DNA from: a virus
Taxonomy: Duplodnaviria > Heunggongvirae > Uroviricota > Caudoviricetes
Virus record (IMG/VR): IMGVR_UViG_3300045988_013781
Length of the DNA: 31,645 nt
Strand: one strand, 5' to 3'
Of the stretch, positions 24,001-27,000 are shown one piece after another (position 1 is the first letter of the stretch; each line of letters begins with the position of its first letter). Position numbers: made by a program.

Positions 24001-27000
24001 ATCTTTCGGGACCACCAGGATATAAACTTTTTTCCTTGCTGTACCGGTGAAACTCCGCCATCACATCGTCAATGGTGACGCCAAGAACCATCTTGCTGTC
24101 TTTACACCACTTGATGAATTGCCCTGGCGACGGCCAGAACGGAGACTCACTGGCGCGGGCGTGGCGCATACCAGCGTTAACCTGTTCCATTGTAGTGATC
24201 CCATTCTCCAGAAACGCAAGCATCCATTGCTTACGGAATTCATTAAGTTTGTTCTGCTCCCTTATGGTCGAAACGCTTGCGGGAAATGCAGCCTGTAACT
24301 GGACAAATAGTTCATTGAAAATTCTAGCGACCTGCTCCTTTTTGCCATTGCTGTCACGCCGCTCTTCATGCACAGCAACACCATGCTCACGTAAGCGATC
24401 GTACTCATTGAGAAGTTCTGGAGTTGATTTCATCCCACACCCCTTCTATCCAGTCAGTGTTATTCCAGTCAAGCTCATCGCTTTTCCCGGCGTTTTTTGA
24501 TTTTCCCCTGATATGATTTACGTGCCTGGCGAATTTTTGTTCCCACTGAACCTGCGTGAACACTTTGCCCTCAGCCATCCAGTAATCCCGGAATGCAGCA
24601 AGTTCAGCAGGTGTAAATTCCGGTTCCGGCAGGGCCGTTCCCCACAGCGCAGCACGCCGTCGAAAATCCGGCGACGGATGCCAGCCATCGGTCATCGGAA
24701 ATTTCCCGATGGGTTCACTCAGGCCATCCAGAAATTCAGGTTCAGCCACCTGCAACGGCATACCGTTCGCTTCACTGGTCGGAGCACCCTCGCGCACGTG
24801 CGCTATGTGTGGGGTTTTATATATATCTTCCTCTTCCTCTTCCTCTGGTAACTCCTTTTGTAACGCTGTTGGCGTTACTTTTTGCGTTACTCGTTTTCGA
24901 TGCTCTGCCACTCTTCTATTCGTAAGTGCACGTTTTTTCGATGATTCTCCATTGTGTCGCTCAAAGTTTGGAAGAATTAGTTTGCCGTCATGATAAGCAA
25001 GCCATCCGACGCTAATGAGGGCGTCAGCAAATCCTGTAATAAAAGCGAGTCTATCAAGTACTCCTTTTGTAACGCTGCCAGCGTTACCGTCTATTGTTTG
25101 CTGGTCAGCCCATGCCCATATACGAACCAGCTTTCCAAGAACAGCATCTGGATCAATACCCAGAATTTCTGCTATCTGAAAAATTTCAGGTTTATCAGGA
25201 GTGATAACTTCAACCTTAATCCAGCTGCTTGCCATAGGTTTCCCCTCTTGCACTCTTTAGTGCACAAGCAAATTCATTACGATGGCGGTTGGCGCTATTC
25301 ATTGCACATTCAACACATGTTCCGTTCAGAACATACCTTTCAGAGAGATGGCCGTGACGGCACCGCTTTCCTGTGAAATAGCGATTTAACCCGGCTTTTG
25401 CGGCCTCCATTCTGGTTACTATCTTCAATTTTTCCGCCTCTTTTTGTTATTGATATTGGCTATTTTGCACAATTGGAAAATTTGATCAACCAGATTTGGT
25501 TTTTTATTACCTTTGAGGTACGAATAGATATGAAAAGACCGCCGGGTGGCGGTCTACAGAGGGTTGTGGCTGGATATCATGAGTAGAAGAAGTATGCCAG
25601 TTCTGCTTTTGAGCGCAGCCATTGTCTTGATTTACAGGCTTTAAAAAGCCCATCCATCAATACCTTACCTGGCATTTTGCGCTTACCTGTTAAGTGAGTC
25701 TGGATATAGTGACTCGTCGTTCCGGCTTCCTGTGCGAAGGCTTCACGCTCATCCGGAGTAAGTGCAAGCCAGTGCTTTTTGAAATCGAAATGTCCGTTAT
25801 CGCTCATAGCTATTGCCTGATATTTATTTCAGATAATAAATATTCACCTATAAGGTAACAAAAATCAAGGATAGTTACCCATGAGGTGCATTTACCTGTT
25901 GGGTAATATTGCTTTAAATTGAATCATCTACTGATTCATATATGAGGCGATTTTCCAGAAAATGAAAAGTATCCAGGACGTCCGCAGGCAAAATCTCAAC
26001 GACTTGATCGACCGTGAATTCAATGGTGTTCAGACGCGGATGGCTGAAAAACTTGGAACTCAGGCAAATCTGGTAAACCGCTGGGCTCTTGGCAAGAAGG
26101 TTATCGGCGACCAGGTTGCACGAAAAATTGAAGCTGCCGCCAATAAACCCCGTAACTGGCTTGATATCGATCGCTCGCTTTCTCAGGAAGGTTTTCAGCC
26201 TGTCGGCCCAAGCGACATTGGCCAGCTGGCGGCTCACAACCTGGAACGCTGGATGAGCGAAAGCCGCGACCTTTCAACGCAGGGAAAACTTCACCGCGCA
26301 TCCGGCGTCGCCCAGGTAACAATCAGCCGCCTGTTAAACAATGAGGTCAGCGTTTCCATTTCCACCCTGGAGAATGTTGCATCCGCATTTGGGCGTCACG
26401 GATATGAATTACTGATTCACCCGCACGACCCAGCGACTATCAACTATGACCGCTCGCGCTACGCATTGTTACCTGAAACAGAGAAGGCAAAGATCGAAAG
26501 TTACATTGAATTTGTCATCAACCAGAACGAAAAAAACAAACAATAAAATCATATTTTTCAGTAAGTAAGCCGCCTTCTGGCGGCTTTTTTATTGCCTATA
26601 CTATTACCTAATAGGTAATTTTTTTAACTCATATCTATTGACATCAAACCAAATACGCATAATCATTACCTCAACGGTAACAGACCGAGGTAACAAGTTA
26701 TGCAGTGGAAAATCATCAACGGTTGGTACTGCGTTACTGCATGCGGATTCATGAGCTGGAAGTTCCGCATCTTACAGGAAGGCATCAAGTGGGCTTTCGT
26801 CAGCAAAGAAGCTCGCGATGTGGCCAACGATAACGAGATATGGGAGGGCTGATAATGAACGTTAATCAGCAGAAAAATCTTCAAAAAATCATGCTGGCAT
26901 TCGACAAGGACTACCGCCTGTCAGAACAGCTATATGACCGACAAGTTGAACTGATTGAGAGCATCCGACTTCATCAACTGTCCTCAACTTTCGACGTTGT

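What the first reader, a model, noticed from the sequence alone, without database searches (positions are those of the whole stretch)
25216..25555. tR1-like terminator after the Cro-like gene with no recognisable N-type antiterminator
The Cro-like gene is followed within 25 nt by a hairpin (AGACCGCC/GGCGGUCU) and U-rich tract, then a near-operator site, then a small Cys/His-rich protein at the cII position, then the O/P-like genes. The first gene of the leftward operon (26700-26852, 50 aa) is not Arg-rich or N-like. Readthrough into the replication genes may use a different mechanism, such as RNA-based antitermination, a weak terminator, or a promoter at the near-operator.
Basis: inference. 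Interest (0 to 1): 0.4.

Follow-up and report, generated by a model that had tools for sequence, protein, structure and literature searches.

The report
Terminator after cro, then own promoter
The hairpin after the Cro-like gene is a real, conserved terminator-type stem-loop already annotated in a near-identical phage, and the replication genes behind it most likely have their own conserved repressor-linked promoter, so this epsilon15/phiV10-type phage probably needs no lambda-style antiterminator here.

Summary
The window is a Uetakevirus (epsilon15/phiV10-like) prophage. The hairpin at 25555-25536 (minus strand) has a -14.5 kcal/mol stem. It occurs in all 14 diverse relatives examined, with compensatory and G·U changes that fit only the cro-sense RNA. 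The phiV10 GenBank record already annotates it as a putative rho-independent terminator.

No N/nut or put-like element was found: no Arg-rich first PL gene, no boxA, no boxB-like hairpin, no Rfam hit.

Between the hairpin and the 70-aa gene lies a promoter-like module conserved across the non-redundant relatives: GGTAA, 17 nt, TTGATC, a variable 16/17-nt spacer, then xAAAAT. The same plan (terminator, operator, promoter, operator) recurs after the P gene, and related versions occur at PL and before the terminase genes. The operator motif TTACC-N5-GGTAA occurs 12 times in the window, against 0.5 expected.

Best reading: serial, insulated, repressor-gated transcription units rather than antitermination. 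The promoter is inferred from comparative sequence, not mapped. The terminator is probably partial, because its U tract is short, and the epsilon15 clade has no U tract at all. This is ordinary biology and largely annotated already, so interest is low to moderate.

The parts
25577..25807 (-). Cro-like HTH gene (76 aa), first gene of the PR unit
   Evidence: ORF. PHROG 35 'transcriptional repressor', E 8.7e-13. 79-84% identical in epsilon15, Tyrion and BUCT554.
25833..25861 (-). PR promoter-like site, TTGTTA-17-TATTAT, overlapping operator 25844-25858
   Evidence: Promoter scan, 9/12. Operator search.
25536..25555 (-). Terminator-type hairpin AGACCGCC-ACCC-GGCGGUCU; its tail UUUCAUAUCUAUU runs to about 25523
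   Evidence: Annotated 'putative rho-independent terminator' in phiV10. Present in all 14 diverse relatives, with compensatory and G·U changes.
25507..25521 (-). Distal, imperfect operator GTACC-TCAAA-GGTAA, about 48-62 nt upstream of the inferred P2 start
   Evidence: The GGTAA half is invariant and sits at a fixed 17-nt distance from the -35 in all relatives. The same motif is annotated as a repressor site in the epsilon15 record.
25490..25499 (-). Conserved box CCAAATCTGG (YC-N6-GG) abutting the -35
   Evidence: The exact 15-mer CCAAATnTGGTTGAT occurs only here and at 213-199.
25484..25489 (-). Inferred P2 -35 hexamer TTGATC
   Evidence: Invariant in 11 non-redundant relatives. It is also the mosaic junction between the window type and the phiV10 type.
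25462..25467 (-). Inferred P2 -10 hexamer CAAAAT, 16 nt after the -35
   Evidence: AAAAT is invariant. The spacer is 16 or 17 nt while its sequence diverges.
25216..25428 (-). 70-aa Cys/His (C-x-H-G-H ... C-x-x-C) protein gene; TTG start, GAGG ribosome-binding site at 25440-25437
   Evidence: PHROG 1081, function unknown. Some homologues are labelled endonuclease VII or HNH.
24405..25253 (-). DnaT-domain (O-like) replication gene
   Evidence: Pfam PF17948, E 6.5e-19.
23657..24433 (-). Lambda-P-family replication gene
   Evidence: Pfam PF06992, E 1.7e-55.
23543..23651 (-). Second module of the same plan: small hairpin GCGC-GATA-GCGC plus U7 (23651-23632), operator 23619-23605, TTGATT (23585-23580), 17 nt, TTTAAT (23562-23557), operator 23557-23543
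   Evidence: A terminator is annotated here in phiV10 and a repressor site in epsilon15.
25844..25906 (.). OR operators at 25844-25858 and 25892-25906, plus a weaker site GCACC-TCATG-GGTAA read by eye at about 25875-25889
25962..26546 (+). Repressor with two HTH domains, homologue of SPC32H Rep
   Evidence: Pfam HTH_3. PDB 5D50, E 4e-42.
26567..26586 (+). Terminator after the repressor gene: AAGCCGCC-UUCU-GGCGGCUU plus a U run
   Evidence: Annotated in phiV10.
26604..26680 (+). PL region: operator 26604-26618, TTGACA (26638-26643), 17 nt, AATCAT (26661-26666), operator 26666-26680
26700..26852 (+). First PL gene, 50 aa, not Arg-rich (2 R)
   Evidence: PHROG 898, function unknown.
20748..20817 (-). 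Late junction: hairpin 20817-20800, extended -10 TGG-TACTAT (20788-20780), operators 20780-20766 and 20762-20748, then terS
   Evidence: The same TGn-TAnTAT plus operator occurs in epsilon15, PAT1, BUCT554 and a Klebsiella phage.

Best explanation
**What it is.** The hairpin is an intrinsic-type terminator, probably only partly efficient. It ends or attenuates the short PR-cro transcript and insulates it from the next transcription unit.

**How the downstream genes are expressed.** The 70-aa gene and the O/P-like replication genes are transcribed mainly from their own sigma-70-type promoter, here called P2. It consists of TTGATC at 25489-25484, a 16-nt spacer, and CAAAAT at 25467-25462. The inferred transcription start is near 25455. 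P2 lies between the hairpin and the gene. It is tied to the phage repressor through the imperfect operator at 25521-25507.

**The wider pattern.** The phage family (epsilon15/phiV10, SPC32H-type Rep/Ant immunity) appears to consist of serial units, each with its own operator-controlled promoter and most preceded by a terminator. Derepression can then switch the units on directly, and no N-type antitermination is needed.

**Shown:**
- the sequence elements, their conservation and their recurrence;
- the absence of N/nut and put signatures.

**Inferred:**
- that the hairpin terminates;
- that P2 fires;
- that Rep binds the near-operator.
For: 1. **Identity of the element.** The region is 98.5% identical to phage ZX5 and 98.6% to phiV10. 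The phiV10 record annotates this hairpin as a putative rho-independent terminator.
2. **The hairpin is under RNA-level selection.**
   - It is present 14-31 nt after the cro stop in 14 relatives from 11 host genera, with stem energies of -9.8 to -15.4 kcal/mol.
   - Loops vary freely among 53 close variants, while stem changes keep pairing.
   - Pair 6 runs A-U, G·U and G-C in different relatives. Pair 3 is G-C or A-U. Pair 7 is G-C, U-A or A-U.
   - The G·U pairs would be A·C on the other strand, so the cro-sense RNA is the selected form.
3. **P2 is conserved.** In 11 non-redundant sequences GGTAA, GGTTGATC and AAAAT are invariant. There is no indel between GGTAA and the -35. The 16/17-nt spacer varies in sequence. 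The geometry to the ribbon-binding site and start codon is normal.
4. **The plan recurs.**
   - After the P gene: hairpin plus U7, perfect operator, TTGATT-17-TTTAAT, perfect operator. The same arrangement occurs in epsilon15.
   - At PL: operator, TTGACA-17-AATCAT, operator.
   - Before terS: a conserved extended -10 fused to operators, in five phages.
5. **Operators are dispersed.** There are 12 sites in the window against 0.5 expected. The epsilon15 record marks the same motif as repressor sites before early and late units.
6. **Nothing N-like or put-like was found**.
7. **P2 does not depend on terminator strength.** It is equally conserved in relatives with a strong U tract (L091, L094) and in those with none (epsilon15, L087, L088, L095).
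Against: - P2 matches the consensus at only 8 of 12 positions, and the promoter scan did not list it.
- The -10 lacks the first T and there is no extended -10.
- No transcript 5' or 3' ends are available.
- The near-operator lies upstream of the core promoter, and the promoter-proximal operator is degenerate in this window (AGCC instead of TACC). Direct repression of P2 is therefore not evident.
- The U tract is short, so simple read-through from PR could supply much of the downstream expression.
- In the epsilon15 clade and the Klebsiella relative the hairpin has no U tract. 'Terminator' may therefore not be its universal or only role.
- The primary papers on epsilon15 and SPC32H could not be read.
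Confidence: 0.65

Rival explanations
1. Leaky terminator only. The replication genes are expressed by passive read-through from PR across a weak terminator. The conserved TTGATC...CAAAAT block is then something other than a promoter, for example a protein-binding site or a recombination linker between modules.
For: - The U tract is short and interrupted.
- P2 scores only 8/12 and is below the scan threshold.
- The mosaic junction between phage types lies exactly at TTGATC, as expected for a module linker.
Against: - The -35/-10 spacing is held at 16-17 nt while the spacer sequence varies.
- The same architecture, with better hexamers, recurs after the P gene and at PL.
- The block is equally conserved where the terminator is strong (L091, L094). 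In those relatives read-through alone should be poor.
Confidence: 0.15
2. The conserved hairpin is mainly an RNA 3'-end, stability or processing element for the cro message, or a pause site. It would be a terminator only in some lineages.
For: - The hairpin is kept in epsilon15, two Citrobacter prophages and a Klebsiella prophage, where the tail is UCCUUCCUGCAU or UCCUGCCUCUCC with no U run.
- A C-rich, G-poor stretch precedes it in all relatives.
- The epsilon15 record annotates other GC hairpins as pausing or RNase III sites.
Against: - In this window's clade and most others a U run immediately follows the stem.
- The phiV10 annotators read it as a terminator.
- The roles are not mutually exclusive.
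Confidence: 0.12
3. Dedicated antitermination by an unrecognised phage factor. Candidates are the 50-aa or 104-aa PL proteins, the 70-aa zinc protein, or an RNA element. Such a factor would modify RNA polymerase so that it reads through this and other terminators.
For: - Several small conserved proteins of unknown function sit at the head of PL and just after the hairpin.
- The early and late regions hold several hairpin terminators.
Against: - No Arg-rich motif, boxA, boxB or Rfam match.
- Almost no non-coding RNA lies upstream of the hairpin.
- The cro, P-gene and late hairpins are each followed by their own promoter-like element with operators.
- The 70-aa family is widespread in unrelated phages.
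Confidence: 0.06

Closest known systems
phiV10 (DQ126339) annotated terminator between PhiV10p41 and p42, and the epsilon15 (NC_004775) annotated repressor sites
   Same: The hairpin is the same sequence apart from one loop base, in the same position. The operator motif ATTACC-N5-GGTAAT is the same and is dispersed before early and late units.
   Different: Neither record annotates the P2 promoter-like block or the imperfect operator after the hairpin. Downstream of TTGATC the window carries the ZX5/TL-2011b-type replication module rather than phiV10's.
Lambda cro-nutR-tR1-cII with the N antiterminator
   Same: Positional analogy: divergent repressor and cro genes, a terminator right after cro, then a small gene and O/P-type replication genes.
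   Different: From established knowledge, lambda tR1 is Rho-dependent and is overcome by N bound at boxB with boxA and Nus factors. Here the element is a hairpin-plus-U type. There is no N-like protein, boxA or boxB. A separate promoter-like element follows the hairpin.
HK022 put RNA-mediated antitermination
   Same: A lambdoid layout without a functional N-type antiterminator.
   Different: From established knowledge, put elements are two-stem-loop RNAs of about 70 nt transcribed between the promoter and the first terminator. Here only about 19 nt of leader and 21 nt of spacer are non-coding before the hairpin, and nothing structured or conserved fits.
SPC32H Rep/Ant immunity system (PDB 5D50)
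   Same: The window's repressor is a clear homologue (E 4e-42, full length). It has two HTH regions and no Pfam match to a self-cleaving peptidase domain. The closely related phage ZX5 encodes an antirepressor (PMC9782041).
   Different: The published structural work concerns the repressor-antirepressor switch. It does not address, as far as could be checked here, the transcription-unit layout discussed in this report.

Membership tests
Intrinsic (Rho-independent) terminator | GC-rich stem-loop in the sense RNA just 3' of a gene | tested here: met
   An 8-bp stem with 6 GC pairs, -14.5 kcal/mol, 21 nt after the cro stop. The G·U variants fit only the cro-sense strand.
Intrinsic (Rho-independent) terminator | Run of U immediately after the stem | tested here: inconclusive
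   The tail is UUUCAUAUCU: 5 U in the first 8, and four consecutive if the last stem U is counted. Relatives L091 and L094 have good U runs. Epsilon15, L087, L088 and L095 have none.
Intrinsic (Rho-independent) terminator | Transcripts end there with RNA polymerase alone | not testable with these tools
   Requires Term-seq or in vitro transcription.
Lambda-type N/nut antitermination | Small Arg-rich-motif protein encoded first in the PL operon | tested here: not met
   The 50-aa protein has 2 Arg. No real PL gene ranks in the Arg-rich scan. No Pfam or NCBIfam family match, and the PHROG families matched have no assigned function.
Lambda-type N/nut antitermination | boxA (CGCUCUUUA-like) plus a boxB hairpin between the promoter and the first terminator | tested here: not met
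   BoxA: 8 hits against 6.6 expected, none in the PR or PL leaders in the correct strand. No hairpin with a 5-bp stem and GNRNA loop in either transcript.
HK022 put-type RNA antitermination | Non-coding two-stem-loop RNA of about 70 nt upstream of the terminator | tested here: not met
   Non-coding space before the hairpin is about 19 nt of leader plus 21 nt of spacer. No Rfam hit down to E = 5. Rfam may not contain put, so this rests mainly on the lack of room.
Sigma-70 promoter (inferred P2) | -35 and -10 hexamers 16-18 nt apart | tested here: met
   TTGATC, 16 nt, CAAAAT: 8 of 12 positions, with A at position 2 and T at position 6 of the -10. This is below the scanner's 9/12 cut-off.
Sigma-70 promoter (inferred P2) | Hexamers and spacing conserved while the spacer sequence drifts | tested here: met
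   In 11 non-redundant relatives TTGATC and AAAAT are invariant and the spacer is 16 or 17 nt with a variable sequence.
Sigma-70 promoter (inferred P2) | Mapped transcription start | not testable with these tools
   No transcript data were available. The ZX5 paper gives no coordinates for its four predicted promoters.
Rep operator of epsilon15-type phages | TTACC-N5-GGTAA inverted repeat | tested here: met
   GTACC-TCAAA-GGTAA has one mismatch. The motif is annotated as a repressor site in epsilon15. Binding itself was not tested.

The most novel reading that the evidence does not exclude
Uetakeviruses may have replaced the lambdoid N/Q antitermination cascade with a fully repressor-gated chain of insulated units. 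Within that chain P2 would be a deliberately weak, activator-dependent promoter.

Three observations point that way:
- The YC-N6-GG box (25499-25490) abuts the -35 and is centred near -41.5.
- The non-consensus -10 (xAAAAT) is invariant across relatives.
- The Cro-like protein is unusually conserved (79-84% identity, against about 42% for the repressor).

Together these would fit a phage factor, possibly the Cro-like protein itself, that switches on the replication genes. In that case the hairpin is kept, even in clades without a U tract, to uncouple cro from that switch.
Probability: 0.15. Interest if true: 0.45.

Novelty: already known. Interest (0 to 1): 0.22.

Why it matters
It removes an apparent puzzle. 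The phage does not need a hidden antiterminator at this site. The terminator is already in public annotation, and the downstream genes very probably have their own promoter.

The wider picture has modest value for annotating epsilon15/phiV10-type prophages, which are common in E. coli, Salmonella and related genera. That picture comprises:
- a repressor operator at the head of nearly every transcription unit;
- terminators acting as insulators between units;
- promoter -10 elements fused to operators.

It also helps in designing reporter or engineered phages from this group. It is not a new kind of mechanism.

Tried and rejected
- **Literature.** The two primary papers (Kropinski 2007, PMC2698709; Kim & Ryu 2013, PMC3807360) are not held. 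Searches for antitermination in this genus found nothing relevant. The ZX5 paper mentions no terminators.
- **N/nut and put.** Searches for boxA, boxB-like hairpins, Arg-rich motifs and Rfam families at gathering and E <= 5 thresholds were all negative near the site. The sub-threshold Rfam hits all sit on the repressor-gene terminator.
- **Covariance model of the hairpin (R1).** It recovered only relatives with 4-nt loops and also picked up the repressor terminator. Its alignment was unsuitable for pair counting. Pair changes were read from the folded hairpins instead.
- **Late regulator (PHROG 536).** It was tested as a possible Q-like antiterminator.
  - There is no Pfam, NCBIfam or PDB sequence match.
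  - The AlphaFold model has low confidence (pLDDT 64).
  - Foldseek against the PDB gave nothing.
  - Its sequence pattern looks like ribbon-helix-helix plus a Cys cluster, which is inference only.
- **PDB sequence searches** for the Cro-like and 70-aa proteins were negative.
- **Antisense ORF 25398-25586 (+).** Rejected as a gene, because spacer indels among relatives break any common frame.
- **Antisense promoter on the + strand.** TTGATC-17-TATTAC lacks the final T and is not conserved in the phiV10-type variant (read).
- **DnaA box, IHF site or Dam control of the GATC in the -35.** The DnaA-like and IHF-like matches are not conserved. GATC is TTGATA in several relatives.
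Full report
**What the window is.** The region 24300-27200 is 98.5% identical to Escherichia phage vB_EcoP_ZX5 and 97.8% identical to TL-2011b. From about 25485 rightwards it is 98.6% identical to phiV10. All are Uetakevirus, the epsilon15/phiV10 group. The gene order is as follows:
- a two-HTH repressor at 25962-26546 (+);
- a divergent Cro-like gene at 25807-25577 (-);
- a 70-aa Cys/His protein at 25428-25216 (-);
- a DnaT-domain (O-like) gene and a lambda-P-family gene at 25253-23657 (-);
- a DUF1064 gene, Ead/Eae-type genes, and a small regulator (PHROG 536);
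- the terminase and structural genes, all on the minus strand.

On the plus strand, after the repressor gene, come a 50-aa and a 104-aa protein, an exonuclease, RecT, an AlpA-like gene, a PerC-like gene and a methylase. The integrase gene follows on the minus strand. The repressor is a full-length homologue of the SPC32H repressor whose structure is solved (PDB 5D50, E 4e-42).

**Checking the observation.**
- The cro stop codon is at 25579-25577. Twenty-one nucleotides later lies AGACCGCC-ACCC-GGCGGUCU (25555-25536), followed by UUUCAUAUCUAUU.
- The stem alone folds at -14.5 kcal/mol. The 81-nt context folds far better than shuffled sequence (z = -3.7; 0 of 200 shuffles as good).
- The generic terminator scan is not enriched overall (9 found, 6.8 expected), so a scan hit alone proves nothing. 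This hairpin is nonetheless among the best stems in 20 kb.
- The phiV10 GenBank record already annotates the same hairpin as a 'putative rho-independent terminator'. It also annotates one after the repressor gene and one after the P gene.
- The 'near-operator' GTACCTCAAAGGTAA (25521-25507) is one mismatch from TTACC-N5-GGTAA. That motif has 12 sites with at most one mismatch in the window, against 0.5 expected, and no shuffle reaches 12.
- The epsilon15 reference record marks exactly this motif (ATTACC-N5-GGTAAT) as repressor-binding sites.
- The first PL gene (26700-26852) has 2 Arg in 50 residues.

**Is the hairpin selected for?** I collected 80 close relatives from viral contigs, annotated relatives (epsilon15, Tyrion, BUCT554, phiV10) and prophages in nine further species of Enterobacterales.
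- Every one of 14 diverse sequences has a GC-rich hairpin 14-31 nt after the cro stop, with stem energies of -9.8 to -15.4 kcal/mol.
- Among 53 distinct close variants the loop changes freely (ACCC, AUCC, ACUC, ACCU). The rare stem changes keep pairing, as U·G or G·U.
- Across the diverse set, counting from the loop, pair 6 is A-U, G·U or G-C. Pair 3 is G-C or A-U. Pair 7 is G-C, U-A or A-U.
- The wobble pairs would be A·C mismatches in the opposite-strand RNA. The structure is therefore selected in the cro-sense transcript.
- One caveat matters. The U tract is good in this window's clade and in several others. It is absent in epsilon15, two Citrobacter prophages and a Klebsiella prophage, where the tail is UCCUUCCUGCAU or similar. 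'Terminator' fits this window, but the stem may have a further or different role in some lineages.

**No N-type or put-type system.**
- The small proteins at the head of PL and after the hairpin give no Pfam or NCBIfam family match. Their PHROG families (898, 856, 1081) have no assigned function.
- The ORFs that top an Arg-rich-window scan are out-of-frame ORFs inside larger genes. Among real genes only the late regulator and a small late-region protein rank high, and neither lies in the PL operon.
- BoxA-like matches are at chance level (8 against 6.6 expected) and none lies in the PR or PL leader in the correct strand.
- Neither transcript contains a hairpin with a 5-bp stem and a GNRNA loop.
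- Rfam gives nothing near the site, even at E = 5.
- The PR leader is about 19 nt and the spacer between cro and the hairpin is 21 nt. There is no room for a put-like RNA of about 70 nt ahead of the hairpin.

**What lies between the hairpin and the 70-aa gene.** Aligning the intergenic region of 11 non-redundant relatives shows islands of invariance in otherwise drifting sequence. In order, these are:
- GGTAA, the right half of the near-operator;
- an A/T-rich 6-7 nt stretch;
- YC-N6-GG;
- TTGATC;
- a spacer of 16 or 17 nt whose sequence differs between lineages;
- xAAAAT;
- about 25-35 nt later, a ribosome-binding site and the start codon.

There is no indel between GGTAA and TTGATC in any sequence. 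In window coordinates the hexamers are TTGATC 25489-25484 and CAAAAT 25467-25462. The GAGG ribosome-binding site is at 25440-25437 and the TTG start at 25428. The relative L093 has GTG at that start and lacks the internal ATG, which supports the upstream start.

Conserved hexamers at conserved spacing across a drifting spacer are the usual phylogenetic footprint of a sigma-70 promoter. I call it P2. It is weak by consensus (8/12) and the scanner did not list it. The mosaic junction between the window-type and phiV10-type replication modules falls exactly at TTGATC. The immunity module therefore carries the hairpin, the operator and the -35, while the replication module carries the -10 and the genes.

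**The same plan recurs.**
- After the P gene (stop at 23659-23657) comes a small hairpin with a U7 run (23651-23632). It is followed by a perfect operator (23619-23605), TTGATT-17-TTTAAT (23585-23557) and a second perfect operator (23557-23543) over the start of the DUF1064 gene. Epsilon15 has the same arrangement, with a repressor site annotated there.
- PL has an operator, then TTGACA-17-AATCAT, then an operator.
- Before the small terminase gene there is a hairpin terminator (20817-20800). It is followed by an extended -10 (TGG-TACTAT, 20788-20780) fused to two operators. The TGn-TAnTAT-plus-operator arrangement is kept in epsilon15, PAT1, BUCT554 and a Klebsiella phage, even where the upstream content differs.
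- At PL, at the promoter after the P gene, at the late junction and at the promoter upstream of the isrK-like RNA, the last T of the -10 is the first T of the operator TTACC. Epsilon15-type P2 sequences read CAAAAT|TACC in the same register.
- Each of the four hairpin terminators is followed 14-19 nt later by an operator.

The simplest reading is a genome built from serial units. Each has its own operator-linked promoter, and most are preceded by a terminator that insulates them from the unit upstream.

**Mechanism proposed.**
- PR makes a short cro message that ends, at least partly, at the hairpin.
- The 70-aa gene and the replication genes are transcribed from P2.
- The repressor, a tetramer in the SPC32H system according to published structural work recalled from memory and not re-read here, holds the units off in the lysogen through the dispersed operators. 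An antirepressor releases them. ZX5 overexpression data support the repressor and antirepressor roles (PMC9782041).
- Sequence, conservation and recurrence are shown. Termination, P2 activity and Rep binding at 25521-25507 are inferred.
- Because the U tract is short, some read-through from PR probably adds to P2 transcription.

**Weak points.**
- The P2 hexamers are poor.
- The near-operator sits upstream of the core promoter, and in this window the proximal site is degenerate (AGCC rather than TACC). How, or whether, P2 is repressed is therefore unclear.
- The invariance of a non-consensus -10, and of the YC-N6-GG box abutting the -35 (centred near -41.5), could mean that P2 depends on an activator.
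- The exact 15-mer CCAAATnTGGTTGAT occurs only twice in the window: at P2 and upstream of the isrK-like RNA. Epsilon15 has it only at P2.
- I could not test any protein-DNA pairing.

**The 70-aa protein.** 'cII position' is only positional. Homologues occur in 183 phage records from many hosts, including Vibrio, Xanthomonas and Pseudomonas phages outside the genus. Some are labelled endonuclease VII or HNH by their depositors. Its function remains unknown, and it is not evidently a lysis-lysogeny regulator.

**Comparison and novelty.** The layout resembles lambda cro-tR1-cII-O-P in position only. The defining features of N/nut were tested and not met, and put-type elements have no room. The hairpin is already annotated in phiV10, and the dispersed operators are annotated in epsilon15. 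The P2 block and the imperfect operator are not annotated in the records I saw. The components are ordinary: an intrinsic-type terminator, a sigma-70 promoter and a repressor operator.

**Verdict.** The mechanism is ordinary and interest is low.

Noticed in passing
window 47-123 (-) and 160-213 (-): An isrK-family RNA (Rfam 56.8 bits) sits at the left end of the window. It is preceded by CCAAATATGG-TTGATT-18-TATTAT fused to a perfect operator (174-160). A second promoter-like site (TTTACA-17-CATAGT) lies closer to the RNA start. By analogy with Gifsy-1 isrK-anrP, this may be the leader of the antirepressor operon.
   Followed up: partly
window 20748-21205 (-): Late junction. The small regulator (PHROG 536, 112 aa) has a basic N-terminus, a ribbon-helix-helix-like sequence pattern and a conserved Cys cluster. 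A conserved palindrome GTGACATGTCAC lies at its stop codon, followed by a hairpin terminator and then the extended -10 plus two operators before terS. Structure prediction was poor (pLDDT 64) and the fold search found nothing.
   Followed up: partly
L098 about 225-275 (BUCT554) and L099 about 225-275 (Klebsiella phage ST11-OXA245phi3.2): At the same late junction these relatives carry an inserted UmuD-like gene behind a textbook LexA box (TACTGTTTAAATGTACAGTA).
   Followed up: no
window 24851-24878 and 25060-25087: A 28-nt direct repeat ACTCCTTTTGTAACGCTGnnnGCGTTAC occurs twice, each copy containing a 19-bp palindrome, inside the DnaT/O-like gene. These are possibly origin iterons, as in lambda ori within O.
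   Followed up: partly
window 160, 17198, 17815, 20748, 20766, 23543, 23605, 25507, 25844, 25892, 26604, 26666: There are twelve TTACC-N5-GGTAA operator sites (0.5 expected), spread over early, late and accessory regions. The repressor seems to gate nearly every transcription unit directly.
   Followed up: yes
window 17535-17608 (+), 17654-17691 (+), 17775-17790 (+): A tRNA gene and two strong plus-strand terminator hairpins lie inside the minus-strand late region, flanked by operators at 17198 and 17815. A TATAAT overlapping the 17815 operator precedes a plus-strand ORF (about 17848-18682). This is possibly the O-antigen-modification moron.
   Followed up: no
window 28857-28875 (+): A GC-rich hairpin GCGGCGC-CACGC-GCGCCGC without a U tract lies between RecT and the AlpA-like gene. 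The epsilon15 record labels the equivalent position 'transcriptional pausing'.
   Followed up: no
window 25577-25807 (-) versus 25962-26546 (+): The Cro-like protein is 79-84% identical across phages whose repressors are only about 42% identical (figure from PMC9782041). All these phages share the operator half-sites TTACC/GGTAA and differ mainly in the central 5 bp.
   Followed up: partly
window 25484-25489: The recombination junction between the window-type (ZX5, TL-2011b) and phiV10-type replication modules lies exactly at the TTGATC hexamer. Both spacer types occur behind the same immunity module among 53 close variants.
   Followed up: yes
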